Source of the DNA: Candidatus Saccharimonadota bacterium
Lineage (GTDB): Bacteria > Patescibacteriota > Saccharimonadia > Saccharimonadales > JACOTW01
Assembly: GCA_016178135.1 (NCBI GenBank)
Contig: JACOTW010000002.1
Span: forward strand, 13,043 to 77,042
Direction: 5' to 3'
DNA length: 64,000 nucleotides
Shown here: positions 1 to 41,075 of the stretch, one piece after another
Position numbering within the stretch: the first letter of the stretch is position 1
Layout: every line of letters starts with the position of its first letter
The notes under the pieces: generated by a model
Seen by the model: the letters and a program-made list of their open reading frames with translations, nothing else
Database searches by the model: none
What the model was told of the DNA's origin: nothing
Position numbers and translations under genes: made by a program

Positions 1-137
1 GAACGAGTATTTTAGAACATCTTTTGTGGACAATCACATTGGGTGATTTTGTAAGCCTTTACCTGGCACTATTGAACGGTTTGAATCCAACACCAGTAGA
101 TTTGATAGAAAAACTAAAACTTGCCATGGATGAGTAA
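1..137 (+). CDS. C-terminal fragment of an upstream gene, possibly a SIS-type phosphoglucose/phosphomannose isomerase
   Basis: Frame 3 is open from the window edge to TAA at 135-137 (...LYLALLNGLNPTPVDLIEKLKLAMDE*). It overlaps the next start by 8 nt. The family call is from memory of the C-terminal consensus only. Confidence 0.35.
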   Translation, partial: TSILEHLLWTITLGDFVSLYLALLNGLNPTPVDLIEKLKLAMDE

Positions 138-876
138 GTCCAGCAAAGATATTACCAGGCTTGGAACGATATTATCTGTTTGGGCTCATCCAGACGACGA
201 GACTTTGAGTTGTGCCGGCATCATGATGGCCGCTATTGCTAATGATCAAAAAGTTATTTGCGTTACGGCAACAAGAGGTGAAGCTGGGGTTAGAGATGAA
301 TCGCGTTGGCCAGCAACAAACTTGGGCAAAATTCGTTCTAAAGAATTGGCGGCAGCACTCAAGATCATGGGCGTTACTGATCATCATTGGTTGGATTATC
401 CTGATGGAGGTTGCGACACGGCACAGGAGGAAAAAGCTGCTCAAAAAATCGCTCATTTAATCGAATACCATAATCCAGATACAATTTTAACGTTTGGACC
501 GGAGGGTTTGACCGGTCATTCAGATCACTGCACCGTTTCACGCTGGGTGGATCTGGCAGTACGATTAGTTGCTAATTCAAAAATTGGCGTATATCACGCT
601 ACAGAACTACGAGAAAGTTTTGAAGCAGGTCAGGAGATTTCTACAAAACATAACTTCTTCTTTAATATAGACAGGCCGCCAATTGTTGAAGCAGGAGAAT
701 GCGATATATTATTTAGACTACCAAAAGAGCTACTGGCAAAGAAGTACATGGCACTTCAGGCAATGCCATCACAGTATGAAGACATATTAAAGGAATCTGA
801 AAAAGATACCATGTACGGCATGATAGGAGCCGAAGCTTTTGTCAGGCACGTTAAATCGGTTGACTCTTTAATTTAA
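130..876 (+). CDS. PIG-L/LmbE family N-acetylglucosaminyl deacetylase
   Basis: The ORF is 121..876. It carries the AHPDDE motif near the N-terminus (ILSVWAHPDDETLSCAG) and a later HSDH motif. The ATG at 130 is preferred over the TTG at 121. Confidence 0.75.
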   Translation: MSKSSKDITRLGTILSVWAHPDDETLSCAGIMMAAIANDQKVICVTATRGEAGVRDESRWPATNLGKIRSKELAAALKIMGVTDHHWLDYPDGGCDTAQEEKAAQKIAHLIEYHNPDTILTFGPEGLTGHSDHCTVSRWVDLAVRLVANSKIGVYHATELRESFEAGQEISTKHNFFFNIDRPPIVEAGECDILFRLPKELLAKKYMALQAMPSQYEDILKESEKDTMYGMIGAEAFVRHVKSVDSLI

Positions 877-1390
877 GCCAATAGCCAATATAAGAAAAAA
901 ACAGATGTAGAGCAAAGTAGACGATAAAAACATAAATCACAAGCCCTATAGTTATATCAATCACAAATGCCACCGCTAATAATCCACCTATAATATAGTC
1001 TATTTGGTCAAACGGATACCAGCTTTTACCTGAATCAATTCCACGCCAACGCTTGAAAAAACTTTCCAGCGCGTCTCCGGCTAGAGCGCCAAAGCCCATA
1101 AGTGGCGCGATTAGCAACTCTGGCTGGCTAAGACCAAACTTCCAGGTAATGTGTTCAAACACCAAAGCCCTTAGAAGCCAACCAGTTATCAGTGCACTGA
1201 AAATCCCAAAAACTAGACCACGCCAGGTTTTGTTATCGCCAAGAATGCGTTTACCATGAAAACTAAAGCCAAAGTCCATTGGTGTACGCCACTTTTTTAG
1301 CAAGGGAATTTGAGTCGACAAAATAGGCATCATATTTGCCGCACCCGCTGGCAAGAAGAACCAGAAAGCTATCAACAAATTATCGATCAT
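851..1390 (-). CDS. CDP-archaeol synthase-like (CarS, DUF46 family) integral membrane cytidylyltransferase
   Basis: 179 aa and polytopic. The motifs GKRILGDNKTWRG, GALAGDALESFFKRW and DQIDY match the CarS signature blocks as I recall them from Archaeoglobus CarS. Confidence 0.65.
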   Translation of the reverse strand: MIDNLLIAFWFFLPAGAANMMPILSTQIPLLKKWRTPMDFGFSFHGKRILGDNKTWRGLVFGIFSALITGWLLRALVFEHITWKFGLSQPELLIAPLMGFGALAGDALESFFKRWRGIDSGKSWYPFDQIDYIIGGLLAVAFVIDITIGLVIYVFIVYFALHLFFSYIGYWLKLKSQPI

Positions 1391-2037
1391 GTTTTAAGCA
1401 ACCTTTTTCTAAGATGATGATATTTAGGGTAAAGAAGTGAGCGTAAATTGGGACGATTAGTAACGAGCGTACCAGACATAAACAGATCAAGTAAGGTATC
1501 ATGGGTTGGTATTTGCTTGACCACGGTATAGGTTTTACCAAGCCCCTGATAGCCATGAGCATCGCTACTGGCCGCACCAATAATATGATTTATGCGTGCC
1601 CAAGTAATTGCCTGCGTGCCACGATTTTGTAAAAATGCTCGTCCGTTACAGGTTTCAATAATGTCGACTTGATCAAGTATTTTTTCAATAGCTACCGGCA
1701 TCAAACCTTTTCGGATAGTTTCGAAAGGATGGGGTATGTAGACAATTCCGCCTTGTTTTTTGATTTGTTTGACTGTTTCTAGGGGTGATAAATTTGGCTC
1801 GACTAAATTATCCAGATAGAGCCCAATTATTTCACCGTCGGTGGTCATGATTTCTTCACCAATAATTATACGATTACCTAATTTTTTGTGCAGCTCAACG
1901 GCAAAATCTATGCGGTTATGATCTGTTACGGCTATCACGTCCAGTAATCCTGTGGCTAGGGCGTGGGCGTATTGCTCGACTTTTATGCCACCATCAGGCG
2001 AGGCGGATGAATGCGTGTGTAGATCAATCTTGTACAT
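1387..2037 (-). CDS. PHP-domain metal-dependent phosphoesterase
   Basis: N-terminal IDLHTHSSASPDG, VTDHN and a C-terminal SDAH are PHP histidine motifs. It overlaps both neighbouring genes (4 nt and 14 nt). Confidence 0.75.
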   Translation of the reverse strand: MYKIDLHTHSSASPDGGIKVEQYAHALATGLLDVIAVTDHNRIDFAVELHKKLGNRIIIGEEIMTTDGEIIGLYLDNLVEPNLSPLETVKQIKKQGGIVYIPHPFETIRKGLMPVAIEKILDQVDIIETCNGRAFLQNRGTQAITWARINHIIGAASSDAHGYQGLGKTYTVVKQIPTHDTLLDLFMSGTLVTNRPNLRSLLYPKYHHLRKRLLKT

Positions 2038-2701
2038 TTTTTAGCTTCTTGGTTATATGCATGAATCGCTGCAAGACTGTTATCGATCCAAACACAACTA
2101 TTATGTACAGAATTGTTGGTAATTTACCAGATACCAAGCCAATTATGATCAGTACTATTCTGGTATCAAAACCAAGCAGACCGCTTCTAAAAGTCTTATT
2201 AACTTTGTGATCTTTACTGGATTCACCCAAAGCGATTTTGCGTGAATCCAGTTTATGGTGGCTAAAGTTAGCTAATACAGCCTCTCCCCAGGCATTCAAA
2301 TAACTGGTGAGTATAGAAATACCCAGAGCCACGATCAAAATAACTATAGTTGTTTTGCTAGCTCCGGAATCTATCAGAAATATAGCCATACCACAGTACA
2401 GCATAATTTCTTTTATGCGATCAGTTGCCGAATCCAAAAACATACCAAGAGCCGAAGTTTTATTTTGCGACCTAGCAAGTTCGCCATCCAACGTGTCAAA
2501 TAACCCAAAAATTGCTAAAAATAGCGCCGCCCACAACGGATGCCGCATGGCAATCAACCAAGCAATCGGAATATGCATCAATAATCCAAAAATCGTAACA
2601 GCATTTGGTGAAAGCCTGTTTTTGGTAATTCTACTAAGCACGACAGCAACACGTTGCATATATTGACGAACAAGATTCCTGATAATATCTAATAGCTTCA
2701 C
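2024..2701 (-). CDS. CDP-alcohol phosphatidyltransferase family protein
   Basis: Carries the D-G-x2-A-R...G...D...D motif (FDTLDGELARSQNKTSALGMFLDSATDR) in a polytopic membrane protein. Confidence 0.8.
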   Translation of the reverse strand: MKLLDIIRNLVRQYMQRVAVVLSRITKNRLSPNAVTIFGLLMHIPIAWLIAMRHPLWAALFLAIFGLFDTLDGELARSQNKTSALGMFLDSATDRIKEIMLYCGMAIFLIDSGASKTTIVILIVALGISILTSYLNAWGEAVLANFSHHKLDSRKIALGESSKDHKVNKTFRSGLLGFDTRIVLIIIGLVSGKLPTILYIIVVFGSITVLQRFMHITKKLKNVQD

Positions 2702-2749
2702 TGGTTAACATTATACAAGATTAACTCGTCTCTGTTATTATAATCTAAG

Positions 2750-20698: not shown

Positions 20699-21268
20699 AT
20701 GAGCAAAACAATAAAGCTTGGTGAAGTGGCAGAAATCCAGAGTGGTTATAGCTTTCGTGGCGCTGTTGGCGATGACGGTGCTGGCACTATGGTTGTCCAA
20801 GCACGGGATATAAGTGCCCTTATAATCGGTGTTGATCACTTACCCCGGTTACAACAGGACTTCCCTAAGACAAAGTTGCTTCAAAAAGGTGACTTGCTTT
20901 TGACCTCACGTGGTTCTTTTCGAGCTGGCGTTGCTCGCTTTGACGCTCCTGCCGTGGCTTCATCGTCTTTATTTACGTTGCACCTACGAAACAAAACATA
21001 CCTGCCGGAGTTTGTAGCGCTATTCCTAAATTCTGGCCAAGCTCAGAGTTATATGACGCAGAATGCAAAAGGTGCAACGATTCAAAGCTTGAGCATTAGT
21101 GACCTAGCTGAACTGTCGCTACCGGTCGTTCCGATCGAACGGCAGAAGTTGCTAGTTGGCCTTCAGCAGAATGTCGAGACGCAGACAGCGCTACTGCGGT
21201 CAAAGCTAGATGTCGTGAATGAAATTTATATCGGTGCAATCAGTAAAAGTCTAAAAGGAGTCGCATAA
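20699..21268 (+). CDS. hsdS: type I restriction-modification specificity subunit, half-size (single target recognition domain)
   Basis: 189 aa. IKLGEVAEIQSGYSFRG opens the TRD, and a C-terminal coiled conserved region (IERQKLLVGLQQNVETQTALLRSKL) follows. The stop overlaps the hsdM start. Confidence 0.8.
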   Translation: MSKTIKLGEVAEIQSGYSFRGAVGDDGAGTMVVQARDISALIIGVDHLPRLQQDFPKTKLLQKGDLLLTSRGSFRAGVARFDAPAVASSSLFTLHLRNKTYLPEFVALFLNSGQAQSYMTQNAKGATIQSLSISDLAELSLPVVPIERQKLLVGLQQNVETQTALLRSKLDVVNEIYIGAISKSLKGVA

Positions 21269-22779
21269 TGGTAGCCAAGAAATACAGCCAAACAGAACTT
21301 AACAATATTTTATGGGATGCTGCCGACTCTAGCCGCACCAGCGTGGATGCGGGTATATATAAGGACTACGCACTTACGATGTTGTTCTTTAAGTACCTTA
21401 GTGATAAATCCCAAAAGCAACATGCCGAATACGCCGAGCGCTACGGTGCAGATGAAGACCGCATCGCGTCAAAGATGAAGCAAGATCGCTTCTATCTACC
21501 GCCTGACACCGATTTTGATTACATTTACGCTAAAAAGGAAGAAGACAACATCGGGGAAGAGCTCAATAAGGTCCTGCATCGCATAGAAGAAACCAATAAA
21601 GCCAAGCTAGAAGGCGTCTTCAGTGTAGACTTCAACTCCGAGTCTATTCTGGGCAAACAAGCACAGCGCAACAAGATGCTCCGTCACCTAATCGACGACT
21701 TTTATAAAATTGACCTCAGTGACGCCGACGAAGATATTATCGGTAATTCCTACATGTATCTTATTGAACGATTCGGTGCTGACGCCGGTAAAAAGGCTGG
21801 TGAGTTCTTTACCGTAAAGTCGGTTGCAAAGCTAGTTGCCATGCTTGCACAGCCAAAGCCCGGCGATCGTATAGCTGACCCAGCGATGGGCAGTGGTGGT
21901 CTTCTCTTGTTGGCTGGCGAAGAAGTTGAAAAACAAGGCTCCAACAACTACGCGCTGTATGGTCAGGAGTCAACCGGCAGTACTTTCCAGTTAGCCCGCA
22001 TGAATATGTTCCTTCATGGCAAAGACTCGGCCTATCTGGAATGGGGCGATACACTCAATAACCCTCAACTGGTAGAAAACGACAAACTGATGAAGTTTGA
22101 TGTTTGTGTCGCTAATCCACCATTTTCTCTCAAGAAATGGGGTGCCGAAAATGCCGATAGCGATAAATATAACCGCTTCTGGCGTGGTGTACCGCCAAAG
22201 GATAAGGGTGACTATGCCTTTATTACCCACATGGTTGAAACTGCCAAGCCAAAAAATGGCCGTGTGTCAGTTATTGTGCCGCACGGCGTACTGTTCCGCA
22301 GTGGTGCTGAGGGTAAAATCCGCGAAGCACTACTCAGAGAAAATATTGTAGACGCAGTCATTGGTTTACCGGCTGGCCTATTCCAAACTACCGGTATTCC
22401 TGTGGCAATTCTAATACTCGACCGTTCCCGCGAAGAGGGTGGCAAGAACGCCAACAAGCAAGACGTGTTATTTATCGAAGCGTCGAAAGAATTCAAACCT
22501 GGCAAAGCCCAGAATACGCTGACCCAGGAAAACATCGACAAAATCTATGACACCTACGTTCAGCGTAAAGACGTAGACAAATTTGCCCACGTTGCCAGCT
22601 TAGACGAAATTATTGAAAACGATTTCAACCTTAATATCACGCGGTACGTTGACACTTTCGTAGAAGAGGCAGAAATAGATATTGCGGCTAACCTAGCGGA
22701 ACTAGAAAAGCTTAACCCAGAACTTCAAAAACTTGAGGCCCAGATGAATGATTATCTAAGGCAGCTAGGGATCAATTAA
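21268..22779 (+). CDS. hsdM: type I restriction-modification DNA methyltransferase (N6-adenine)
   Basis: An HsdM N-terminal domain, the AdoMet motif DPAMGSGGLL and the catalytic VANPPFSLKKW are present. Confidence 0.92.
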   Translation: MVAKKYSQTELNNILWDAADSSRTSVDAGIYKDYALTMLFFKYLSDKSQKQHAEYAERYGADEDRIASKMKQDRFYLPPDTDFDYIYAKKEEDNIGEELNKVLHRIEETNKAKLEGVFSVDFNSESILGKQAQRNKMLRHLIDDFYKIDLSDADEDIIGNSYMYLIERFGADAGKKAGEFFTVKSVAKLVAMLAQPKPGDRIADPAMGSGGLLLLAGEEVEKQGSNNYALYGQESTGSTFQLARMNMFLHGKDSAYLEWGDTLNNPQLVENDKLMKFDVCVANPPFSLKKWGAENADSDKYNRFWRGVPPKDKGDYAFITHMVETAKPKNGRVSVIVPHGVLFRSGAEGKIREALLRENIVDAVIGLPAGLFQTTGIPVAILILDRSREEGGKNANKQDVLFIEASKEFKPGKAQNTLTQENIDKIYDTYVQRKDVDKFAHVASLDEIIENDFNLNITRYVDTFVEEAEIDIAANLAELEKLNPELQKLEAQMNDYLRQLGIN

Positions 22780-22780
22780 G

Positions 22781-23839
22781 ATGCCACAGCTAGCAACTCG
22801 ATCTACCTCAAGCGAGACGATGGACGTTGACCCTATTGTTTTAAGGGAAACTACGACTACCAGGTTGATATTTTGCCCTAGTTGGGTTAGCACTTCGGAT
22901 AACCCACTAAGGGGTGGTTTTGTCTTCCAGAGGAAAAGTCGAAGTACCACTTGGGAAAATTTTGAGTCTATTTCACTTGCAAATATGCACATGAACGAAG
23001 AGTACAAGTTGAATCTAGGCGGTGATGAAGTTAGCATGCTGTTAAATTCACTGGACGATATTAACAAACTGCTTATCGAGCACGGCCATTCATATGGTCA
23101 GCGAGTTTTTGAACTTAAAGAGAATAATGCTGGTGGAATCTTCGTACAAATAGGTCAGATAGAAAATCGACAATGGATTGTTGATGAGCTTAAAAAACTG
23201 GAAGCAAACAATTTCGAAAACTTGGGAACTGCTCTAGGCCGTGCGCGTATAGAATTAGCGATTGAAGAGATAGAAAGCAACATGTCTAACGACAGTGAGT
23301 CTTTTTGGCAGGCATTTTTCTCACGCAATACGTGGGTATTACAACAGGTATTTGCTTACCCAGTTTTTTACCTTAACGGAGAAACATATCTAGGTGGTAA
23401 AAATTCAAGCGGCAGAAATGGAGCTGGCGGTACGGCTACAGACTTTCTGTTGAAGCATGGATCAACCGGTAGCTTTGCCGTTATAGAAATTAAAACGCCT
23501 ATGAGTGATCTCATCGGCACCGAGTATAGAGGCACTGATGCAGGGCTTGAAAACCAAATATTTAGTATGCACAAAGAACTGTCGGGTGGAATTGTGCAAA
23601 TGGAGAATCAAATACGTATTGCAGTAGAGGAGTTTGGTGGGCCGCTTACGCGGGATTACCCTGGCTTGAATTACCTTAATCCCTGTGGTGTTTTAATTAT
23701 CGGTAAATATGATGGTCTATCCGATGAGCAAAAGCGCTCCTTCTTCTTATTCAGAAAATCTCTAGGCAAAAATCTTGTTTATACCTATGACGAACTACTT
23801 GAGAAAATCAAGTTACTAAGAGGTGTCTATGAATCATAG
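22781..23839 (+). CDS. Shedu-like DUF4263 PD-(D/E)xK nuclease domain protein embedded in the hsd operon
   Basis: The C-terminal half reads ESFWQAFFSRNTWVLQQVF...ATDFLLKHGSTGSFAVIEIKTP...GVLIIGKYDGLSDEQKRSFFLFRKSLGKNLVYTYDELL, which matches the DUF4263/SduA pattern as I recall it. It starts 2 nt after the hsdM stop and overlaps hsdS by 17 nt. Confidence 0.6.
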   Translation: MPQLATRSTSSETMDVDPIVLRETTTTRLIFCPSWVSTSDNPLRGGFVFQRKSRSTTWENFESISLANMHMNEEYKLNLGGDEVSMLLNSLDDINKLLIEHGHSYGQRVFELKENNAGGIFVQIGQIENRQWIVDELKKLEANNFENLGTALGRARIELAIEEIESNMSNDSESFWQAFFSRNTWVLQQVFAYPVFYLNGETYLGGKNSSGRNGAGGTATDFLLKHGSTGSFAVIEIKTPMSDLIGTEYRGTDAGLENQIFSMHKELSGGIVQMENQIRIAVEEFGGPLTRDYPGLNYLNPCGVLIIGKYDGLSDEQKRSFFLFRKSLGKNLVYTYDELLEKIKLLRGVYES

Positions 23840-25088
23840 TCAAATACCCGATGGTTGGCATGTCAAGAAACTTAAACAGACTGGTGAGGCAATAATCGGT
23901 CTAACGTATTCCCCGAAGGATGTGGTTGACTCTGGTGGAATCGAAGTCTTACGATCGTCTAATGTTCAACACGGTAGGATTGTACTGGATGATCTAGTAA
24001 GGGTTAATGCAAAAATTCCCGAAAAGATTATTCTTCAAGATGGAGATATTCTAGTATGCGCTAGAAACGGTAGCCGTAGACTAATTGGTAAAAATGCTCG
24101 AATTAATAGACACAATATAGGCAAAACATTTGGTGCTTTTATGTGTGTGTATCGATCAGACAATCCGAACTATATGTATTGGGTATTCCAAACTGAGTCT
24201 TTTAGAAAACAGATTGCACGCGACTTAGGCCCAACGATTAATCAAGTAACGACCGGCAATCTTAATTCGTTTAAGTTTGCATTTCCGAGTGAAGACGAAC
24301 AAGCGAGAATTGTCACGGTTTTAGAAGTTTGGGATGAGTATGTTGAAAAATTAGACAAAAAAATTGAACTCAAAAAGAATATTAAAAAAGGTTTAATGCA
24401 GGATTTACTAACTGGCGAGATTCAAATTCCTGGTTTTAATGGAGAGTGGCAAGAAGTCAAATTGGGCGAAAATGGTGAAACGTACGCAGGCCTGTCGGGT
24501 AAAACAAAAGAAGATTTTGGCCAAGGCAAGCCGTATATTACCTACATGAATATATACTCAAATCCAACAGTTGACCAAAACAACTACGAACTTGTTAAAT
24601 TAGACCATGAAGAATCTCAAAATAAAGTCAAATACGGCGACATTCTATTCACGACCTCTTCTGAAACGCCTGAAGAAGTAGGTATTGCTTCTGTTTATCT
24701 AGGAAATGACAGCGAGCTTTATCTAAACAGCTTCTGTTTTGGGTTTAGATTGAAACAACCGGCTAAGCTTTCTCCAAAATTTGCTCGCCATTATTTCAGA
24801 GGTCAGCAGTTTAGGAAAACAATGACACGCATAGCTCAAGGTGCAAGTCGCTATAATCTTTCGAAAAGATACTTCATGGAGACAAAGATCAGGATACCTG
24901 TAGACATTGCGGAGCAAGAGCGCATTGCCGAACTATTAGACAACATAAGTTTTGATATAAAGCTACTGCACGATAAAAGACAACTTGTCCTTAATCAGAA
25001 AAAGTATTTGGTTAATAATCTTATAAGGGGTGATCTACGAACACCGGAAGACTTACGGATATCTATAAAGGAGATGCAGCATGCTTGA
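23823..25088 (+). CDS. hsdS: type I restriction-modification specificity subunit, full-length (two target recognition domains)
   Basis: 421 aa with two TRDs separated by a central conserved helix (EDEQARIVTVLEVWDEYVEKLDKKIELKK). The C-terminal repeat reads IAEQERIAELLDNISFDIKLL. Confidence 0.88.
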   Translation: MSMNHSQIPDGWHVKKLKQTGEAIIGLTYSPKDVVDSGGIEVLRSSNVQHGRIVLDDLVRVNAKIPEKIILQDGDILVCARNGSRRLIGKNARINRHNIGKTFGAFMCVYRSDNPNYMYWVFQTESFRKQIARDLGPTINQVTTGNLNSFKFAFPSEDEQARIVTVLEVWDEYVEKLDKKIELKKNIKKGLMQDLLTGEIQIPGFNGEWQEVKLGENGETYAGLSGKTKEDFGQGKPYITYMNIYSNPTVDQNNYELVKLDHEESQNKVKYGDILFTTSSETPEEVGIASVYLGNDSELYLNSFCFGFRLKQPAKLSPKFARHYFRGQQFRKTMTRIAQGASRYNLSKRYFMETKIRIPVDIAEQERIAELLDNISFDIKLLHDKRQLVLNQKKYLVNNLIRGDLRTPEDLRISIKEMQHA

Positions 25089-28000
25089 GAATGTTAACTT
25101 TGATGAGGCCAGACAGTCGCAACTTACATTTGTTGAGATGCTTATAAATATGGGTTATGCGTATTTGCCGACAGCGGAGCTTATGCGTCAGCGTAGTGGT
25201 GACACTTCGTACTATCTACTAAAAGAAGTTGCTGCAGAATCTTTGATGCGAATCAATGATTACGAGCACCACGGCCAGACGTACAAGTTTACGGAGAAGG
25301 ACGTTGCCGAGACCATTGATGAGCTAGAAAGCCTCCAGCACGAAGGGTTGATAGATACATCCAAAGCCGTTTACAACACCATAATGCCGCTCAAAGGTGG
25401 TAAAACAATCCGTGTTTTCCATGATGGTAAATATGAGTCTAAAAGTTTCCGTTTTATCGACTTTGAACACCCAGAGAATAACCAATTTCATGTAGCTGTG
25501 GAAGTTGAAATCAGCGCCAAGAGCGGTACCCGCCGTCCTGATATCGTTTGTTACATTAACGGTATTCCGTTTGTCGTGATTGAAAATAAGAAATCGAGTA
25601 CCAATGTATCCGATGCCATAAACCAAATGATTCGCAACCAGGGTCCCGACTATAGCCCTAAGTTTTTTATCTATCCACAACTATTGATAGCTACTAACGG
25701 TAAAGACTTACGCTACGGAACTACCGGAACTCCAGCTGAGTTCTACGTTAACTGGCGGGAAAAAGACCACAGCGCCGAAGAAGTTGACGAAAAAGTACGT
25801 AATCTTATCTCCACCAAAATTGATGATGAACAATACACTCAGTTACTGCAAGATCTAAATGGAAATACTCATGGTCACACTCAGCGCCTTGACCGCAAGC
25901 CAACCGAGCAAGACCGTTCCATAATTGCTCTACTCGATAAAAAACGACTGCTAGATATTACTAAGAATTACATCCTATACGATGGCGTTCAAAAAAAAGT
26001 TATGCGCTACCAGCAATTTTTTGCAATCAACCGTGCATTGAAACGTATTGAAGAGAAAGAACCAACCAGCCACGGTGAACGTCGTAAGGGCGGTATCATC
26101 TGGCATACGCAGGGCTCCGGCAAGTCATTGACGATGGTAATGTTCGTTCGCGCTCTAATTGAAGACCCCCGCATAATAAACCCACGCATATTAATTGTTA
26201 CCGACCGTAAAGACTTGGATAGGCAAATTCTTGGGACTTTCCAAAACGCCGGACTCAAGAAAAAAGTGAAGCAAGCCCGCAGTGGTGAGCACTTGCTTGA
26301 ACTCATAAAGTCTAAAGACACAAGCGTTGTCACGACATTAATCCATAAGTTCCAGTCGGCGTCCCGCCGTCGGGCAGACTTTATAGACAACGACCAAAAC
26401 ATTTTTGTACTTATTGACGAGGCGCACCGCTCGCAGCAGGGTGATGCCAATATAGAGATGAATCGTACTATCCCGAACGCCTGCTACATTGCCTTCACTG
26501 GCACCCCACTTCTTAAACGTGAGCAATCACAAAACAAGTTCGGTAGCTTCATTGATAAATACACAATTGATGATGCTCTCGAAGACAATATAGTTCTGCC
26601 ACTCATTTACGAAGGTCGCTACGTAGACCTGCATCAGGATAAAAAAGAGATTGATCGCCAAGCAGACCGTGTCATGGAAGATATGCCTGAATATATTCGA
26701 AAGAAGTTACAAGAATCGGTACAAAAAAGTATCATACAAGATAGTCCAAAACGTATTAATGAAATTGCATATGATATAGAAAAACATTATATTAGTCGCT
26801 TCCAAGGGTATGGACTGAAGGCGCAGATAGTGGCACCGTCCAAATTCTCAGCCATGCTGTTCCAAAAATACTTTAATGATAGTGGCAAGATAAATACAGC
26901 CCTTGTTATATCTGACGAAAATGGCATCATTGACGACAAAGACGAGCACAAAAAAGAAGTCGAAGGCTACCTAAAAGATATTAAGGATAAATACCAAAGC
27001 CTACTTAGCTACGAAAAGGAAGTCATCGATAGCTTCAAGTACAACGACGAAGGTGTAGAAATCCTGATTGTTGTCGACAAACTCCTCACGGGCTTCGATG
27101 CACCGCGTAATACGGTACTTTACCTCGCCAAAGAGCTGAGAGACCATAACTTGCTCCAGGCAATCGCTCGTGTTAACCGCCTGTATGACAACCCAGCTTT
27201 ACCAAAAACAGCGGGTTTCATTATCGACTATTCTGAAAATGCCCAGAACATCCATACTGCTATGCAGCTGTTTGGTAATTACGACGAGACTGACGTTAAA
27301 GGTGCGCTGATTGATGTCAACGAAAAGATACAAGACCTTGAAACCAGCTACGGTGCCTTACACGACATATTCAACGGTATTCAAAGCGACGACGAAGCCT
27401 ACCTACAGCACCTTAACGATGATCCAACTCGCAAAGAATTCTATGCCGCACTTAATAAGTTCGTGCAGGAATTTAGCGAGTGTATGGTATTGCAAGACTT
27501 TGCTCATGAGTTTGAAGACCTTGATATTTATCGTCTAGAACTAAAGAAGTTCATGGAACTTCGAAAAACTGCCACTTTGATGCACGAAGAGCGGGTTGAT
27601 TTTTCGAAGTACAAGAATGCGCTAGTGAAAATAATGGACGACAACATAAAAGCAGACGAAGCTGAGTTATTGACCGAAGAAATTAACATTACTGACAAGG
27701 AATTGTTTGATAAGGCAATTGAAGAAATTGGCTCCGACAAATCCAAGGCCGAAGCTATTGCCGCACAAACCAAACGAACAATTACCGAGAAGTTTAACAC
27801 TGACCCCGAATTTTACGGCAAGTTTTCGAAGAAGATTAGCGAAATCCTTGACGCTATGCGAGCAAAGAAGCTTGCCGACATTGAAGCTCTAAAACAACTT
27901 AAGCTCATAACAGATGAGGTATTAAATAAAAAGGACGATACGTTGCCTTCGGTAGTCGCTGAAACGCCCGGGGTTGATATTCTATATCGCAACCTCCGCG

Positions 28001-28254
28001 CTCATCTTGATTTGGAAGAAATTACTTATATAAAAACCGTACTTGATATATACCAAGTACTAAGCAAAAATGCTCGAGTAGATTGGTGGAAGAATCACGA
28101 AATGAAACGAATCATGCGGAGCAGTATTGACGATTACCTATACGATGAAGTGAAAGTGAAGCTTGGCGTCAACCTTACTGTCGATCAAATTGATTCAATT
28201 GTAGATGACGTCATGAAACTGGCAGAAAATAACTACGAGATATTTGTTAAATGA
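25081..28254 (+). CDS. hsdR: type I restriction enzyme R subunit (helicase-nuclease)
   Basis: The nuclease motif reads RRPDIVCYINGIPFVVIENK. SF2 motifs HTQGSGKS and IDEAHRSQ are present. 1057 aa. Confidence 0.92.
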   Translation: MLENVNFDEARQSQLTFVEMLINMGYAYLPTAELMRQRSGDTSYYLLKEVAAESLMRINDYEHHGQTYKFTEKDVAETIDELESLQHEGLIDTSKAVYNTIMPLKGGKTIRVFHDGKYESKSFRFIDFEHPENNQFHVAVEVEISAKSGTRRPDIVCYINGIPFVVIENKKSSTNVSDAINQMIRNQGPDYSPKFFIYPQLLIATNGKDLRYGTTGTPAEFYVNWREKDHSAEEVDEKVRNLISTKIDDEQYTQLLQDLNGNTHGHTQRLDRKPTEQDRSIIALLDKKRLLDITKNYILYDGVQKKVMRYQQFFAINRALKRIEEKEPTSHGERRKGGIIWHTQGSGKSLTMVMFVRALIEDPRIINPRILIVTDRKDLDRQILGTFQNAGLKKKVKQARSGEHLLELIKSKDTSVVTTLIHKFQSASRRRADFIDNDQNIFVLIDEAHRSQQGDANIEMNRTIPNACYIAFTGTPLLKREQSQNKFGSFIDKYTIDDALEDNIVLPLIYEGRYVDLHQDKKEIDRQADRVMEDMPEYIRKKLQESVQKSIIQDSPKRINEIAYDIEKHYISRFQGYGLKAQIVAPSKFSAMLFQKYFNDSGKINTALVISDENGIIDDKDEHKKEVEGYLKDIKDKYQSLLSYEKEVIDSFKYNDEGVEILIVVDKLLTGFDAPRNTVLYLAKELRDHNLLQAIARVNRLYDNPALPKTAGFIIDYSENAQNIHTAMQLFGNYDETDVKGALIDVNEKIQDLETSYGALHDIFNGIQSDDEAYLQHLNDDPTRKEFYAALNKFVQEFSECMVLQDFAHEFEDLDIYRLELKKFMELRKTATLMHEERVDFSKYKNALVKIMDDNIKADEAELLTEEINITDKELFDKAIEEIGSDKSKAEAIAAQTKRTITEKFNTDPEFYGKFSKKISEILDAMRAKKLADIEALKQLKLITDEVLNKKDDTLPSVVAETPGVDILYRNLRAHLDLEEITYIKTVLDIYQVLSKNARVDWWKNHEMKRIMRSSIDDYLYDEVKVKLGVNLTVDQIDSIVDDVMKLAENNYEIFVK

Positions 28255-28955
28255 CCACCCGAACCTTTGAATATGGCACACATAGTTACATTTATGGGTT
28301 AGTTCGTCAGGACAGAAAAACTTTGAGCCTCACGGTTGAACCTTGTCTAGATATTATCCTGAAAGTTCCGGAAGATGTCGACAATGAGCGAATTGAAAAG
28401 TTTCTGCGTAAGAAATGGATGTGGCTCAATAAACAGCTGACCTTTTTCGAGAAATATCGCAAGAAGTATTACCAGAAAGAATATGTCTCGGGCGAGAGTT
28501 TTTATTACCTAGGCCGGCAATACAAATTGATCGTAGTTAATGGCGATAAAAACTCGGTTGCGCTGAGTAAGGGCAAGCTTACAATTACGACGGGTAAAAA
28601 TACTTCTGACGGTAAATATAACCGGACATTGCTCGAGCGATGGTATAAGCAACGTAGACACGCTGTATTTACTGAACGTTACGCTGAAGTCCTGACACAT
28701 TTTGATTACAAATTCACTCCGGAGTTAACCGTACGCGTAATGGCACGACGCTGGGGTAGCTATATCAAGGGCGAGCGCATCATATTGAATCCGCTACTAA
28801 TTCAGGCTCCCAAAGAAGCCATAGACTACGTAATTACCCACGAACTTTGCCACATGAAGTATAAAAACCACGACCCGCGGTTCTTTCAGCTTATGGATAC
28901 TAAATATACAGGTTGGCGCAAGACTAAGGAAAAGCTGGAGCTACTAGTCGCATGA
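28251..28955 (+). CDS. YgjP-like (DUF45/M48-related) zinc metallohydrolase
   Basis: Carries HELCHM(x)...H near the C-terminus. ATGA overlap with hsdR. This family is commonly linked to type I R-M loci. Confidence 0.75.
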   Translation: MTTRTFEYGTHSYIYGLVRQDRKTLSLTVEPCLDIILKVPEDVDNERIEKFLRKKWMWLNKQLTFFEKYRKKYYQKEYVSGESFYYLGRQYKLIVVNGDKNSVALSKGKLTITTGKNTSDGKYNRTLLERWYKQRRHAVFTERYAEVLTHFDYKFTPELTVRVMARRWGSYIKGERIILNPLLIQAPKEAIDYVITHELCHMKYKNHDPRFFQLMDTKYTGWRKTKEKLELLVA

Positions 28956-38414: not shown

Positions 38415-38423
38415 TTGGCTATT

Positions 38424-39446
38424 ATGGATCATCCAGATTTATCCCCAGATTACATTACCGACAGACTTCATGAAACTGGAGTTGTAGATGTAGATGTTAC
38501 ACCGTTCATATCAGAGCAGCATGACGAGCCTAGTAACTTGCCAAACCCAGAGATTATTGATACCGAAACACCAGCAACGCCAAAGAATGACGGCATGTCC
38601 CGCCGTGGTTTTTTAAGGCTTGCTGGTATTGCCGCTACGACATTGTTGGCGGGTAGTTCGGGTAATAATATTTATAGCGGTACTAACGAACACCCCAGCC
38701 TGATCAGTGAACAACATCACAAACTACCTAACACCGAAGTCATAAAATCAGTCGCGGAAACAATGCCAAAACCCCCCGAATTTTCCGAACTTAGTCTTAG
38801 AATAAATAGTCCGGAAACTCCAGACGGGGCATTTATGGGAGCAATGACAGTCAGATATGCCGATAACCCAGATCGTAGCCTGCAATCTGAAGAAGGCTTA
38901 ATTGATAAATACTGGCAATCAAAAGGTTTACCACGACCAGCCGTCAATAACCCATCAGTGCACCGTTTAAGGGTAGGAGGATCTATCACCAGCGAAAATG
39001 TCAAGGCGTTTGACCCGCTATTGGATGAAGCCGCGGTTGTCCACAAAGGTACGGATAGCGGGTTGATTTTGATAGCCCAACACAATATCACACAAGTTAA
39101 AGGGCCTGTTGAGCTCGATGGTGCTATTTACGACCACTTGCAGATGGGTATTAATGAATACGTTATGCCTGGCGATACATTAGAAATAGTTTTGTCGAAT
39201 CAACAACAGCCAGGTTTTTTGGATGTGTTTAGGTTTGTTGCCACTGGCTCCAGGGTTGTAGCTTATCCTGAAGATTTAGAAACAGTGTATGAATACAATC
39301 CAGAAGAGGGCAAAGAACAAGCAGGGGATTTAGCTGTTCTGAAAACCTATATTTGTTGGCCGCCAGGGCAGAAAAGGTACAGATTGGTTGTTGAATGGGA
39401 GCCTCAAAATACCGCGATTGTGCACGGAACAGTTAATCCGGTATAA
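38424..39446 (+). CDS. secreted sortase-like protein (tentative) with a twin-arginine-like signal
   Basis: An internal MSRRGFLRLAGIAATTLLAGS gives an alternative start at 38595. LIAQHN...GDTLEIVL...LKTYICWPPGQKRYRLVVEW resembles the sortase H...GD...(L)xTC...R pattern. Confidence 0.4.
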   Translation: MDHPDLSPDYITDRLHETGVVDVDVTPFISEQHDEPSNLPNPEIIDTETPATPKNDGMSRRGFLRLAGIAATTLLAGSSGNNIYSGTNEHPSLISEQHHKLPNTEVIKSVAETMPKPPEFSELSLRINSPETPDGAFMGAMTVRYADNPDRSLQSEEGLIDKYWQSKGLPRPAVNNPSVHRLRVGGSITSENVKAFDPLLDEAAVVHKGTDSGLILIAQHNITQVKGPVELDGAIYDHLQMGINEYVMPGDTLEIVLSNQQQPGFLDVFRFVATGSRVVAYPEDLETVYEYNPEEGKEQAGDLAVLKTYICWPPGQKRYRLVVEWEPQNTAIVHGTVNPV

Positions 39447-40487: not shown

Positions 40488-41075
40488 ATGTTTAGCATGA
40501 ATAAGCTCAAATCAATATTCCGTGGCACTTTAACAGTTACTCATAGAGTCTTTAAAAAGCATTGGTTTAAAAACAAGCGCAATATAGTCATATTGGTGGC
40601 TATAGTTGGGCTGGTGGGTTTTTTGGGCTGGTGGTATTTTTCAAAACCCCAGACCGCGTATAGTCCAGTACCTAAATCACCGCTAGAAAAATACACTAGC
40701 GTTACACCGGTTCAAAAAGCCGACACGCTGGCATTTTATGGCGATTACCAGGGTAGCCAGAAGTTGCTGGATGATGAAATTGCCAAAACCAAGGACGATG
40801 CCAGTAAAAGCAAATTATATAACGCCAAATGCCTGATAGCCTTTAATCATAAACATTACGATGACTCTCTGACTTTTGCCCAGGCTGCAGAAAAACTGGC
40901 CCCAAGTCGCATTACGGCGTTGTATATAGCCAAGAGTAGCGAGGCTCTACATAACAAAAAACTGGCTCTGGAGTATTATAAAAAAGTGATTGAACGTACT
41001 CCGCAACAAATGAAAGACCTAGATGAAACCATCAACGTCGATAATGAAGCCAAGATAAAAGAGTTAAGCAAATGA
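40488..41075 (+). CDS. membrane-anchored TPR-like protein
   Basis: One TM segment (IVILVAIVGLVGFLGWWYF) is followed by helical repeats (AKCLIAFNHKHYDDSLTFAQAAEKLAP...ALEYYKKVIE). TATAAT at 40471-40476 lies just upstream. Confidence 0.5.
   Translation: MFSMNKLKSIFRGTLTVTHRVFKKHWFKNKRNIVILVAIVGLVGFLGWWYFSKPQTAYSPVPKSPLEKYTSVTPVQKADTLAFYGDYQGSQKLLDDEIAKTKDDASKSKLYNAKCLIAFNHKHYDDSLTFAQAAEKLAPSRITALYIAKSSEALHNKKLALEYYKKVIERTPQQMKDLDETINVDNEAKIKELSK

What the first reader, a model, noticed from the sequence alone, without database searches (positions are those of the whole stretch)
851..2701. Overlapping three-gene operon: CDP-alcohol phosphatidyltransferase, PHP phosphoesterase, CarS-like CDP-archaeol synthase homologue
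The three minus-strand genes overlap by 14 and 4 nt.

- The last gene has the CarS signature blocks (GKRILGDNKTWRG, GDALESFFKRW, DQIDY). CarS is the archaeal enzyme that activates unsaturated archaetidic acid with CTP.
- Together, a CTP-dependent lipid activator, a CDP-alcohol head-group transferase and a phosphoesterase form a logically complete three-step route.
- The phosphoesterase could remove the terminal phosphate from a head-group-phosphate intermediate, as in the PGP or PIP/AIP phosphatase steps.

CarS-like genes in bacteria bear on the lipid-divide discussion. Which substrate is used here, an ester or an ether lipid, is an open question, particularly if this organism cannot make its own lipids.
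Basis: partly seen in the sequence, partly recalled or inferred. Interest (0 to 1): 0.55.

Follow-up and report, generated by a model that had tools for sequence, protein, structure and literature searches.

The report
Archaeal-type lipid head-group operon
A three-gene operon in a lipid-scavenging Saccharibacterium joins an archaeal-type lipid activator, a head-group transferase and a phosphatase; the same trio recurs in many of these bacteria and in tiny symbiotic archaea, which suggests a shared membrane-remodelling kit and a candidate for a long-missing phosphatase.

Summary
Three minus-strand genes (2024-2701, 1387-2037, 851-1390) overlap by 14 and 4 nt. They encode an AIPS/PIPS-like CDP-alcohol phosphatidyltransferase, a PHP/PHP_C metallo-phosphoesterase and a full-length CarS-family cytidylyltransferase.

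The window is from a Candidatus Saccharibacteria MAG, and NCBI already names the last gene "CDP-archaeol synthase". At least 557 species-representative genomes encode a relative. In the best 80 loci, about 60 keep the same gene order with overlapping junctions.

PHP_C-type PHP, CDP-OH transferase and CarS also lie together, in other gene orders, on archaeal contigs (one annotated Nanoarchaeota) and on other CPR-like bacterial contigs. Transferase-CarS fusion proteins exist.

Most likely mechanism (inferred):
- scavenged phosphatidic acid is converted to a CDP-lipid;
- the transferase adds a phosphorylated head group (inositol-phosphate-like favoured, glycerol-phosphate possible);
- the PHP enzyme removes the terminal phosphate.

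An ester lipid is favoured over an ether lipid. Starr et al. 2018 predicted PA to CDP-DAG to PI from this same operon, but did not recognise the CarS identity or the PHP step.

Unresolved: the inositol-phosphate source (no MIPS seen), whether a CdsA exists elsewhere in the genome, and all biochemistry. This is a new variant of a known pathway type, of moderately high interest.

The parts
2024..2701 (-). AIPS/PIPS-like CDP-alcohol phosphatidyltransferase, 225 aa, GTG start; first gene of the operon
   Evidence: - Pfam CDP-OH_P_transf, E 6.3e-17.
- NCBIfam archaetidylinositol-phosphate synthase 110 bits and PIP synthase 95 bits, both below the equivalog cut-offs; PgsA only 29 bits.
- Complete D69xxD72GxxAR77...G86xxxD90xxxD94 motif.
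- Invariant R212 aligns with MtPIPS R195.
- AF2 model pLDDT 89; best folds are RsPIPS, MkPIPS and MtPIPS, TM 0.72-0.79.
- The N-terminal 14 residues are conserved in homologues, which supports the 2701 start.
1387..2037 (-). PHP + PHP_C metal-dependent phosphoesterase, 216 aa, soluble, with a basic C-terminal tail; proposed head-group-phosphate phosphatase
   Evidence: - Pfam PHP and PHP_C.
- Family-invariant H7xH9, D15, H40, E62, H103, D159xH161, and the tail YPKYHRLRKKLK.
- No hydrophobic segment.
- AF2 pLDDT 84.6; PHP-barrel neighbours are BVU_3505, TM0559, RNase AM and Cv1693.
- 33% identical (E 2e-24) to a 209-aa PHP that sits next to a CDP-OH transferase in a Nanoarchaeota lipid cluster.
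851..1390 (-). CarS-family CTP:lipid-phosphate cytidylyltransferase, 179 aa; last gene of the operon
   Evidence: - Pfam CarS-like, E 8.4e-30, full length.
- NCBIfam CarS equivalog 132.4 bits, below the 148-bit cut-off.
- 5GUF at E 1.3e-14, residues 2-178 against 11-173; 34% identity.
- Conserved GDxKTxxG, GALxGDxxxSxxKR and DQxD.
2024..2037 (-). 14-nt overlap between the transferase stop and the PHP start (ATGTACAAGATTGA)
   Evidence: Sequence. Overlapping or abutting junctions are the rule in 54 loci, with a median of -4 nt.
1387..1390 (-). 4-nt ATGA overlap between the PHP stop and the CarS start
   Evidence: Sequence. The same -4 junction occurs in 24 of 62 loci, and the median is -4 nt.
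2710..2738 (-). Promoter-like site (ATAACA, 17 nt, TATAAT) about 9 nt upstream of the GTG start; implies a leaderless or very short-leader transcript. Candidate only.
   Evidence: Consensus scan, 10 of 12 matches. The number of such sites in the region is no higher than in shuffled sequence, so this is weak evidence.
121..876 (+). PIG-L-family de-N-acetylase, convergent with CarS and overlapping its 3' end by 26 nt; possible accessory gene (NCBI start at 130)
   Evidence: - Pfam PIG-L, E 1.6e-33; no NCBIfam equivalog is reached.
- In the same position in 25 of 80 Saccharibacteria loci.
- A PIG-L gene plus a GT4 glycosyltransferase also lie in the Nanoarchaeota CarS cluster, but the two PIG-L proteins are not similar at BLAST level.

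Best explanation
The three genes form a translationally coupled module that puts a new polar head group on a glycerolipid the cell has scavenged or recycled, not made.

- **Step 1 (inferred).** The CarS-family membrane enzyme condenses CTP with a lipid phosphate to give a CDP-activated lipid and pyrophosphate. The lipid is most likely diacyl phosphatidic acid, in some lineages supplied by a neighbouring DgkB-like lipid kinase.
- **Step 2 (inferred).** The AIPS/PIPS-like CDP-alcohol phosphatidyltransferase transfers the phosphatidyl group onto a phosphorylated alcohol and releases CMP. Inositol-1-phosphate-like acceptors are favoured, and glycerol-3-phosphate is possible.
- **Step 3 (inferred, the newest part).** The soluble PHP/PHP_C metallo-phosphoesterase is held at the anionic membrane by its basic tail. 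It removes the terminal phosphate to give the mature lipid (PI-like or PG-like).

Shown: the family memberships, intact catalytic motifs, the operon structure and its conservation, the fusions, and the cross-domain recurrence of the trio.

Inferred: all substrates and the direction of flux.
For: **Families and motifs**
-.

**Operon conserved**
- At least 557 species genomes encode a CarS-like relative.
- About 60 of the 80 best loci keep transferase-PHP-CarS, with median -4 nt junctions.
- CarS has some CDP-OH transferase in its locus in 69 of 75 usable loci.

**Rosetta-stone fusions**
- CDP-OH_P_transf fused to CarS-like in P0435, P0461 and P0492.
- P0435 was verified on a complete Nomurabacteria chromosome and on an independent assembly.

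**PHP link**
- PHP co-occurs with the AIPS-like transferase: 53/6/6/10, Fisher p 4.5e-5, not corrected for phylogeny. PHP is present in only 1 of 10 loci that have only the variant transferase CDPOH2.
- PHP_C-type PHP sits beside CDP-OH transferase and CarS in three archaeal contigs (L091/L092, L094, L097) and two other bacterial contigs (L090, L098), in four different gene orders.
- Where the transferase's neighbour is a PS decarboxylase, PHP is absent (L096).

**Phosphorylated acceptor**
- The invariant TM6 Arg aligns with MtPIPS R195, which binds the phosphate of inositol phosphate (PMC4634129).
- The best folds are PIP synthases, TM 0.72-0.79, against about 0.5 for PgsA.
- T. rhizospherense has the same operon plus a separate pgsA.

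**Ester lipid**
- Saccharibacteria lack fatty-acid synthesis (PMC11659515, PMC10633639).
- All intact polar lipids in a CPR-enriched size fraction were acylglycerols (PMC7242380).
- A DAGK_cat lipid kinase lies next to CarS in 7 loci.
- The only K00981 hit in the stored T. rhizospherense table is this 186-aa CarS-like protein.

**Phosphatase gap**
- The PIP phosphatase was unidentified in 2015 and in a 2022 review (PMC4634129, PMC9385802). The one since found is PgpA-type (PMC9246714).
Against: - **CarS specificity.** Characterised archaeal CarS discriminates strongly against phosphatidic acid and cannot complement E. coli cdsA (PMC9385802).
- **Below curated cut-offs.** CarS, AIPS and PIPS NCBIfam equivalog scores all fall short. 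MtPIPS K135 is replaced by Asn.
- **No inositol-phosphate source.** No MIPS gene was seen in the 64-kb window, in 80 neighbourhoods of about 6 kb each side, or in the stored part of the T. rhizospherense table.
- **Head group ambiguous.** Archaeal glycerol-phosphate transferases cluster with inositol-phosphate transferases (PMC9385802), and the archaeal L091 partner transferase is PgsA-like.
- **PHP relatives.** The nearest characterised PHP enzymes act on nucleotides or RNA. No lipid phosphatase is known in this fold.
- **Incomplete linkage.** PHP-CarS pairs without an adjacent transferase exist in a few loci.
- **Module dispensable in one lineage.** Southlakia epibionticum lacks the whole module, and its single CDP-OH transferase is non-essential.
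- **Genome not searched.** The rest of this genome could not be searched for CdsA, PgpA or MIPS.
Confidence: 0.6

Rival explanations
1. Same pathway logic, but the acceptor is glycerol-3-phosphate. The transferase would be an archaeal-type PGP synthase and PHP the PGP phosphatase, feeding PG and cardiolipin rather than an inositol lipid.
For: - Archaeal glycerol-phosphate transferases cluster within the inositol-phosphate transferase group (PMC9385802).
- All AIPS and PIPS scores are below their equivalog cut-offs.
- MtPIPS K135 is not conserved.
- No MIPS was seen anywhere examined.
- In the archaeal locus L091 the transferase next to PHP and CarS is PgsA-like, 61 bits.
Against: - Profile scores favour AIPS and PIPS by a wide margin: 110 and 95 bits against 29 for PgsA.
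- The fold is closest to PIP synthases, TM 0.72-0.79 against about 0.5 for PgsA.
- T. rhizospherense carries a separate pgsA (K00995) in addition to this operon.
- A PIG-L-family gene abuts the operon in 25 of 80 loci.
Confidence: 0.27
2. PHP is not a lipid phosphatase. It could be a pyrophosphatase or nucleotide phosphoesterase that pulls or tidies the CarS reaction (PPi, CMP, pAp), or an RNase-AM-like housekeeping enzyme that merely shares the operon.
For: - The nearest characterised PHP relatives are RNase AM, the pAp phosphatase Cv1693 and polymerase PHP domains.
- KEGG and COG file the T. rhizospherense orthologue under COG0613/K07053.
- PHP is adjacent to CarS slightly more constantly than to the transferase.
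- The protein has no membrane segment.
Against: - PHP is nearly absent (1 of 10 loci) where CarS is paired only with the variant transferase CDPOH2, and absent where the partner is a PS decarboxylase. A CarS helper should be present in those loci as well.
- Southlakia keeps a 310-aa RNase-AM-type PHP but lacks this 216-aa PHP_C type together with CarS.
- The conserved basic C-terminal tail suits binding to an anionic membrane.
Confidence: 0.2
3. The operon makes genuine archaeal-type lipids. CarS would activate unsaturated archaetidic acid (DGGGP) made by the bacterium, or archaeol-type lipid taken from archaeal neighbours, and the transferase would make archaetidylinositol phosphate.
For: - Both membrane enzymes score best against archaeal models, CarS and AIPS.
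- The window CarS is as similar to A. pernix CarS (34%) as to many CPR homologues.
- The cassette is shared with archaeal contigs.
- Characterised CarS prefers DGGGP (PMC9385802).
Against: - No GGGPS, UbiA-type DGGGPS or G1P dehydrogenase was found in the 64-kb window or in the recurrent neighbour families of 80 loci.
- The CPR size-fraction lipids were all acylglycerols (PMC7242380).
- Cultured Saccharibacteria grow on Actinobacteria (PMC10633639).
- A DgkB-like diacylglycerol-type kinase is the recurring lipid-kinase neighbour.
Confidence: 0.07
4. The CarS-like protein is a CTP-dependent lipid kinase of the dolichol- or phytol-kinase type rather than a cytidylyltransferase, so no CDP-lipid is formed.
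For: The CTP-transferase superfamily includes CTP-dependent polyprenol kinases (own knowledge). The Pfam CTP_transf_1 match is only local.
Against: - Full-length CarS alignment with the Asp dyad (DQxD) and the KR motif intact.
- Near-obligate adjacency to CDP-alcohol transferases, which need a CDP donor, and physical fusion to them.
Confidence: 0.04

Closest known systems
Archaeal CDP-archaeol synthase CarS (A. pernix 5GUF; A. fulgidus AF1740)
   Same: - Same Pfam family.
- Same length of about 180 aa, with an end-to-end alignment.
- Conserved GDxKTxxG, GALxGD...S..KR and DQxD motifs.
- 34% identity to ApCarS.
   Different: - It sits in a bacterium that has fatty-acyl lipids and no visible ether-lipid genes.
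- It scores 132 bits, under NCBI's 148-bit equivalog cut-off.
- Characterised CarS rejects phosphatidic acid (PMC9385802), which is the substrate proposed here.
Prokaryotic PIP and AIP synthases (M. tuberculosis PgsA1, R. salmoninarum PIPS, M. thermautotrophicus AIPS)
   Same: - Complete CDP-alcohol phosphotransferase motif.
- Six-helix fold closest to PIPS.
- Conserved Ser133 and the TM6 Arg that binds the acceptor's phosphate.
   Different: - Below both equivalog cut-offs.
- Lys135 is replaced by Asn.
- The TM4-TM5 loop differs, and this copy carries a private 13-aa insertion.
- The acceptor has not been tested.
Bacteroides thetaiotaomicron inositol-lipid cluster BT_1522-1526 (PMC9246714)
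   Same: The logic is clustered PIP synthase plus PIP phosphatase: a lipid-linked inositol phosphate is made and then dephosphorylated.
   Different: - There the phosphatase is PgpA-family (BT_1525), a MIPS gene is in the cluster, and CDP-DAG comes from ordinary CdsA.
- Here the phosphatase candidate is a PHP enzyme, no MIPS is seen, and the activator is CarS-type and sits inside the operon.
E. coli ynbABCD operon
   Same: The operon logic and order match: CDP-alcohol phosphatidyltransferase (YnbA) overlapping a CTP-transferase-family CDP-diglyceride synthase (YnbB), with a phosphatase-domain protein (YnbD) downstream.
   Different: - Similarity is at motif level only.
- YnbB is a CdsA paralogue tied to MPIase glycolipid synthesis (PMC7018664).
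- The YnbD phosphatase is not annotated as a PHP protein.
Genome-based PI pathway proposed for the Saccharibacterium T. rhizospherense (Starr et al. 2018, PMC6031116)
   Same: It rests on the very same operon: genes _1167, _1166 and _1165, of 210, 215 and 186 aa, overlapping by 4 and 11 nt. It proposes scavenged PA to CDP-DAG to PI.
   Different: - That paper treated the 186-aa protein as a putative CdsA (K00981, 31.7 bits).
- It assigned a one-step PI synthase.
- It gave the PHP gene no role.
- It did not note the archaeal affinities or the conservation of the operon.
Uncharacterised PHP phosphoesterases TM0559 (2ANU) and BVU_3505 (3E38); RNase AM; Cv1693 pAp phosphatase
   Same: PHP barrel fold and the metal-ligand motif set.
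   Different: - At most about 21% identity.
- The window protein is shorter (216 aa), carries PHP_C and a conserved basic tail, and is embedded in a lipid operon.
- No lipid substrate is known for any PHP enzyme.

Membership tests
CarS (CDP-archaeol synthase; Pfam PF01864, NCBIfam NF003114) | Full-length match to the Pfam CarS-like model above its gathering score | tested here: met
   104.5 bits against a cut-off of 22; residues 1-176 on model positions 1-172 of 175.
CarS (CDP-archaeol synthase; Pfam PF01864, NCBIfam NF003114) | Reaches NCBI's curated equivalog cut-off (148 bits) | tested here: not met
   132.4 bits. A typical Saccharibacterial relative scores 129.9. The archaeal-context relative in L091 passes at 158.1.
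CarS (CDP-archaeol synthase; Pfam PF01864, NCBIfam NF003114) | A compact protein of about 180 aa alignable end to end with solved CarS, with the CTP and metal-binding motifs conserved | tested here: met
   5GUF at E 1.3e-14, residues 2-178 against 11-173. GDxKTxxG, GALxGD..S..KR and DQxD are identical and invariant in the family.
CarS (CDP-archaeol synthase; Pfam PF01864, NCBIfam NF003114) | Genomic company of the ether-lipid core enzymes (GGGPS, DGGGPS, G1P dehydrogenase) | tested here: inconclusive
   None found in the 64-kb window or among the recurrent neighbour families of 80 loci. The rest of the genome could not be searched.
CarS (CDP-archaeol synthase; Pfam PF01864, NCBIfam NF003114) | Uses unsaturated archaetidic acid (DGGGP) plus CTP | not testable with these tools
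   A biochemical property. Published CarS enzymes prefer DGGGP over PA (PMC9385802).
Bacterial CdsA (Pfam PF01148; signature KDx5PGHGGx2DRxD) | Full-length CdsA architecture of about 9 TM helices and the CDS signature motif | tested here: not met
   Only residues 53-122 match model positions 169-235 of 264, at 27.9 bits. The protein is 179 aa. The aligned segment reads KRWRGIDSGKSWYPFDQID with no PGHGG.
PIP/AIP synthase (NCBIfam NF045883, NF040950) | CDP-alcohol phosphotransferase motif D1xxD2GxxAR...GxxxD3xxxD4 | tested here: met
   D69TLDGELAR77...G86MFLD90SATD94; invariant across the family.
PIP/AIP synthase (NCBIfam NF045883, NF040950) | Two arginines that bind the acceptor's phosphate (MtPIPS R155 on TM5, R195 on TM6) | tested here: inconclusive
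   Invariant R212 aligns with R195 in the profile-to-PDB alignment. Invariant R181 (FDTR/FExRM) sits at the start of TM5, where R155 lies, but HMMER did not align that loop.
PIP/AIP synthase (NCBIfam NF045883, NF040950) | Inositol-pocket residues S132 and K135 of MtPIPS | tested here: not met
   S133 is conserved, but K135 corresponds to N136, which is nearly invariant Asn in the family.
PIP/AIP synthase (NCBIfam NF045883, NF040950) | Reaches the curated equivalog cut-offs | tested here: not met
   AIPS 110.1 bits (cut-off 180); PIPS 94.8 bits (cut-off 170). A typical family member aligns over the full length at 111.6 and 89.8 bits.
PIP/AIP synthase (NCBIfam NF045883, NF040950) | Fold closest to solved PIP synthases | tested here: met
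   Foldseek top hits are 5D92, 6WMV and 6H53, TM 0.72-0.79. PgsA 7DRJ is at about 0.5 and PSS at about 0.4.
PIP/AIP synthase (NCBIfam NF045883, NF040950) | A source of inositol-1-phosphate (MIPS) in the genome | tested here: inconclusive
   No MIPS in the window, in the 80 neighbourhoods, or in the stored (truncated) T. rhizospherense table. A whole-genome search was not possible.
PHP-family metal-dependent phosphoesterase (Pfam PF02811 + PF13263) | PHP and PHP_C domains above the gathering scores | tested here: met
   30.9 bits (cut-off 26.4) and 28.6 bits (cut-off 21.3).
PHP-family metal-dependent phosphoesterase (Pfam PF02811 + PF13263) | Set of metal-ligand residues (HxH, D/H, H, E, H, D-x-H) | tested here: met
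   H7, H9, D15, H40, E62, H103, D159 and H161 are all invariant in 22 homologues.
PHP-family metal-dependent phosphoesterase (Pfam PF02811 + PF13263) | PHP barrel fold | tested here: met
   AF2 pLDDT 84.6. The top 15 Foldseek PDB hits (E <= 1e-3) are all PHP proteins.
Known lipid head-group phosphatases (PgpA / BT_1525, PgpB, PgpC types) | Homology to one of those families | tested here: not met
   Neither Pfam nor NCBIfam reports such a family for the 216-aa protein. If it is the phosphatase, it is a non-homologous replacement.

The most novel reading that the evidence does not exclude
The PHP_C-type PHP phosphoesterase is the long-missing phosphatase that matures inositol-phosphate (or glycerol-phosphate) head groups, and it does so in both domains.

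The CarS / CDP-alcohol transferase / PHP cassette would then be a horizontally shared lipid salvage and head-group remodelling kit of the two radiations of ultrasmall episymbionts, CPR bacteria and DPANN-type archaea. It would be fed by a neighbouring lipid kinase, DgkB-like in bacteria and a possible CTP-dependent kinase in archaea.

In that case CarS-family enzymes accept whichever lipid core the host supplies, including ester-linked phosphatidic acid, so CarS would no longer be a marker of archaeal ether lipids. With the adjacent PIG-L deacetylase (and the GT4 glycosyltransferase in the archaeal cluster), the pathway may continue to a glucosaminyl-inositol glycolipid.
Probability: 0.3. Interest if true: 0.8.

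Novelty: new variant of a known kind. Interest (0 to 1): 0.62.

Why it matters
**How these bacteria build membranes.** Patescibacteria cannot make fatty acids, and a 2024 perspective states that their lipid uptake and processing mechanisms are unidentified (PMC11665869). This operon is a widespread, conserved and experimentally tractable piece of that puzzle.

**A candidate for a missing enzyme.** The phosphatase that converts PIP or AIP to PI or AI was unidentified after the pathway was defined in 2009-2010. Only a PgpA-type enzyme has since been found, in Bacteroides in 2022. A PHP-family enzyme linked to the synthase across Bacteria and Archaea is a concrete, testable candidate.

**The lipid divide.** CarS and CdsA are currently held to uphold the lipid divide through substrate selectivity (PMC9385802). 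A CarS-family enzyme serving as the apparent CDP-lipid synthase of a fatty-acyl-lipid bacterium would test that view directly.

Tried and rejected
**Could not be done**
- A whole-genome check for CdsA, MIPS, GGGPS, DGGGPS, G1PDH and PgpA.
- The AFDB50 fold search for PHP distribution; the library was unavailable.
- Residue-level geometry of the acceptor pocket; model coordinates are not exposed.

**Literature searches that found nothing useful**
- No paper links a PHP enzyme to PIP synthase.
- Coleman et al. 2019 does not treat CarS.
- The ApCarS structure paper is not held.
- No paper combines CarS with Saccharibacteria or CPR beyond incidental mentions.

**Ideas that stayed weak or were set aside**
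- The ~190-aa protein after CarS in archaeal loci as a CTP-dependent lipid kinase: only PF01148 at E 0.007 and a 22-column hhalign match at 45% probability. Kept as a hint.
- A phylogeny to decide the direction of transfer: the NJ tree of 148 sequences is star-like, has no support values and few domain labels. No conclusion was drawn.
- The UbiA gene in the Nanoarchaeota cluster as a DGGGP synthase: its only PDB hit is a decaprenyl-phosphate phosphoribosyltransferase at E 6.5e-6. Subtype unresolved.
- The window PIG-L as an orthologue of the Nanoarchaeota PIG-L: no BLAST hit at E < 1e-3.
- E. coli YnbA and YnbB as orthologues: rejected, because similarity is at motif level only.
- PGAP's 211-aa start for the transferase: rejected in favour of GTG at 2701.

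Full report
**1. What is in the sequence**

The window holds three minus-strand ORFs at 2024-2701 (225 aa, GTG start), 1387-2037 (216 aa) and 851-1390 (179 aa). The DNA shows a 14-nt overlap, ATGTACAAGATTGA, between the first two genes and a 4-nt ATGA overlap between the last two.

Pfam assigns them to three families:
- CDP-OH_P_transf, E 6.3e-17;
- PHP plus PHP_C;
- CarS-like, E 8.4e-30, over the full length.

A PIG-L-family deacetylase (121-876, plus strand) converges on the operon and overlaps its end by 26 nt. ArgRS diverges upstream. A promoter-like ATAACA-17-TATAAT lies only about 9 nt before the GTG. This is weak evidence for a leaderless or short-leader transcript.

NCBI calls the transferase at 211 aa in this genome. 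Homologues conserve the extra N-terminal MKLLD..R..VR segment, so 2701 is the better start.

**2. Source and existing annotation**

The 179-aa protein is identical to an NCBI protein named [quoted passage not shown]. It lies on a 654-kb contig of GCA_040960765.1. The gene names are therefore not new. What they do together is not described in the literature I could search.

**3. Family tests**

*CarS-like protein*
- It aligns end to end with the solved A. pernix CarS (5GUF, E 1.3e-14). GDxKTxxG, GALxGD..S..KR and the DQxD dyad are shared and invariant in the family.
- Identity to ApCarS is 34%.
- It scores 132.4 bits on NCBI's CarS equivalog model, under the 148-bit cut-off.
- Its resemblance to CdsA is confined to the catalytic loop, 27.9 bits, and it lacks the PGHGG part of the CDS signature.

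*Transferase*
- It carries the complete D69xxD72GxxAR...GxxxD90xxxD94 motif.
- It scores best on archaetidylinositol-phosphate synthase (110 bits) and PIP synthase (95 bits). Both are below their cut-offs but far above PgsA at 29 bits.
- Its family-invariant TM6 arginine (R212) aligns with M. tuberculosis PIPS R195, a residue that binds the phosphate of inositol phosphate (PMC4634129). Ser133 matches S132, but Lys135 is Asn here.
- An AlphaFold model (pLDDT 89) superimposes best on PIP synthases, TM 0.72-0.79. AF2299 and DIPPS come next, then PgsA at about 0.5.

*PHP protein*
- It is the best conserved of the three, at 63-70% identity among the top 120 hits.
- All PHP metal ligands are invariant, and it has a conserved basic tail. 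It has no hydrophobic segment.
- Its model (pLDDT 84.6) matches uncharacterised PHP phosphoesterases TM0559 and BVU_3505, then RNase AM and the pAp phosphatase Cv1693.

**4. Conservation within Saccharibacteria**

A scan of one genome per species found at least 557 genomes with a CarS-like relative. The best 80 are essentially all Saccharibacteria. Within those 80:
- tblastn finds the transferase in 64 and PHP in 65, and the order transferase-PHP-CarS on one strand holds in about 60;
- both junctions have a median of -4 nt;
- a convergent PGI gene occurs in 42 and PIG-L in 25.

Where the upstream pair is missing, CarS is convergent with a second transferase, CDPOH2, found in 15 loci. CDPOH2 has a variant motif, DxxDGxxAE. 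In 7 loci a DAGK_cat lipid kinase is next door.

Overall, CarS has a CDP-OH transferase in its locus in 69 of 75 usable loci. PHP tracks the AIPS-like transferase (53/6/6/10, Fisher p 4.5e-5, not corrected for phylogeny) and is present in only 1 of 10 loci that have only CDPOH2.

**5. Beyond Saccharibacteria**

An exhaustive profile search finds 2,832 clusters (at 50% identity) of CarS-like proteins at E <= 1e-3.

*Fusions.* Three of the top 150 are fusions of an N-terminal CDP-OH transferase to CarS. One is on a complete Candidatus Nomurabacteria chromosome and on an independent assembly.

*Sampled contexts*

| Locus | Domain evidence | Arrangement |
|---|---|---|
| L091 / L092 | Archaeal: Rpr2, Hel308-type helicase, diphthamide synthase | PHP_C-PHP, PgsA-like transferase, CarS with 4-nt overlaps; this CarS passes the equivalog cut-off at 158 bits |
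| L097 | Archaeal: S27e, eIF2-alpha, Nop10 | CarS, transferase, PHP_C |
| L094 | Annotated Nanoarchaeota | Radical-SAM, two PHP_C proteins, three CDP-OH transferases, a UbiA-family gene, CarS, PIG-L and GT4 within 8 kb |
| L090 | Bacterial | All three families, in another order |
| L098 | Bacterial | All three families, in another order |
| L096 | Probably archaeal | PS decarboxylase, transferase, CarS; no PHP |

One of the two PHP proteins in L094 is 33% identical to the window's (E 2e-24). It has the same length class, the same motif positions and a basic tail.

The pattern is that CarS travels with a transferase and with the enzyme that matures that transferase's product. PHP appears when the product would be a phosphorylated head group.

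**6. Which lipid**

Several observations favour ester-linked phosphatidic acid as the substrate:
- Saccharibacteria lack fatty-acid synthesis (PMC11659515, PMC10633639).
- In a CPR-enriched size fraction, all 72 intact polar lipids were acylglycerols (PMC7242380).
- No GGGPS, DGGGPS, G1PDH, MIPS, CdsA or Pls genes occur in the 64-kb window.
- None occur among the recurrent neighbour families of the 80 loci.
- The recurring kinase neighbour is DgkB-like.

Against this, archaeal CarS strongly prefers DGGGP and cannot replace E. coli CdsA (PMC9385802). Either this clade has shifted specificity or the reading is wrong. That tension is the main biochemical question.

**7. Prior art and limits**

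The supplement of Starr et al. 2018 shows the same operon in T. rhizospherense. Genes _1167, _1166 and _1165 are 210, 215 and 186 aa and overlap by 4 and 11 nt. They are labelled as follows:
- _1167: K17884, manually annotated as CDP-DAG-inositol 3-phosphatidyltransferase;
- _1166: K07053, COG0613;
- _1165: a weak K00981 hit, 31.7 bits.

K00981 occurs only once in the stored part of that table. A separate pgsA exists, and no MIPS term is found there. Their published "PA to CDP-DAG to PI" prediction therefore already rests on these genes, without recognising the CarS identity or the PHP step.

The PIP phosphatase was described as unidentified in 2015 and in 2022 (PMC4634129, PMC9385802). The only one since found is PgpA-type (PMC9246714).

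The module is not universal. Southlakia epibionticum has no CarS, CdsA, PHP_C, DAGK or PIG-L domain in its genome table, and its single CDP-OH transferase is non-essential.

**8. Verdict**

The best-supported mechanism is a three-step head-group installation on a scavenged glycerolipid: CarS-type activation, transfer to a phosphorylated alcohol, and PHP-catalysed dephosphorylation. My estimates are:
- about 0.85 that this is a CDP-lipid head-group module;
- about 0.55 that PHP is the head-group phosphatase;
- about 0.65 that the lipid is ester-type;
- about 0.5 that the head group is inositol-based.

It is a new variant of a known pathway type. Its main value is the PHP phosphatase candidate and the cassette shared between CPR bacteria and DPANN-type archaea.

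Noticed in passing
window 20699-28955 (+): A Type I restriction-modification island with a Shedu defence gene inside it: a half HsdS, HsdM, SduA (N and C domains, 22781-23839), HsdS, HsdR, and a YgjP-like metallopeptidase.
   Followed up: no
window 56855-59038 (-): A 727-aa tyrosine recombinase (Phage_integrase plus SAM-like N domain) interrupted by an intein with a LAGLIDADG homing-endonuclease domain. It lies next to tRNA-Arg(CCT) at 59815-59889.
   Followed up: no
window 43817-56666 (+): A type IV pilus cluster: PilM, two unannotated genes, PilB, PilT, PilC, a pilin, the prepilin peptidase, minor pilins and a PilX-like protein. Upstream, the ORFs at 41072-43660 (862 aa) and 38415-39446 (343 aa) have no Pfam hit.
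   Followed up: no
L040:7572-8216 (-) and 14 other Saccharibacteria loci: A second CDP-alcohol transferase family (CDPOH2), convergent with CarS. Its signature motif reads DxxDGxxAE...GExxDAxxDK, so the supposedly invariant Arg is Glu. NCBIfam cannot subtype it: AIPS 47, ClsA 34 and PgsA 34 bits.
   Followed up: partly
L069:3664-4644 (-) and six other loci (L040, L057, L059, L060, L064, L073): A DAGK_cat (DgkB/YegS-like) lipid kinase lies next to the CarS-like gene. This suggests that diacylglycerol is phosphorylated to feed CarS in those lineages.
   Followed up: partly
L088:8001-8993 (Candidatus Nomurabacteria CP060223.1); also P0461 and P0492: Natural fusion proteins with an N-terminal CDP-OH transferase of about 150 aa (complete motif) and a C-terminal CarS. 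The Nomurabacteria gene sits between gyrB and secE-nusG, with no PHP nearby.
   Followed up: partly
L094:1-7598 (GCA_042577865.1, Nanoarchaeota archaeon): A dense lipid supercluster: a radical-SAM protein (509 aa), two PHP+PHP_C proteins, three CDP-OH transferases, a UbiA-family prenyltransferase (subtype unresolved), CarS, PIG-L and a GT4 glycosyltransferase.
   Followed up: partly
L091:5528-6115, L093:4483-5049, L096:4547-5137: An unannotated membrane protein of about 190 aa directly after CarS in the archaeal-context loci (L096 only probably archaeal). It has a conserved GDA.AA.VG..G..K...EGS motif. Similarity to the CTP-transferase superfamily is only weak, PF01148 at E 0.007. It may be a CTP-dependent lipid kinase.
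   Followed up: partly
window 2204-2242 (residues 150-162 of the transferase): This genome's transferase carries a private 13-residue insertion (KLDSRKIALGESS) in the TM4-TM5 cytoplasmic loop. None of the 23 aligned homologues has it.
   Followed up: no
L001:11254-12309 (just beyond window position 1); 42 of 80 loci: An archaeal/bacterial-type PGI (bact-PGI_C) gene is conserved downstream of the operon, usually just beyond PIG-L. A DUF1361 membrane protein lies between the transferase and ArgRS in 35 loci but is absent here.
   Followed up: no
Southlakia epibionticum ML1 genome tables (PMC10633639 supplement): This cultured oral Saccharibacterium lacks the CarS-like, CdsA, PHP_C, DAGK_cat and PIG-L domains altogether. 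It keeps one non-essential CDP-OH transferase (SEML1_0297), so the module has been lost in at least one host-associated lineage.
   Followed up: partly
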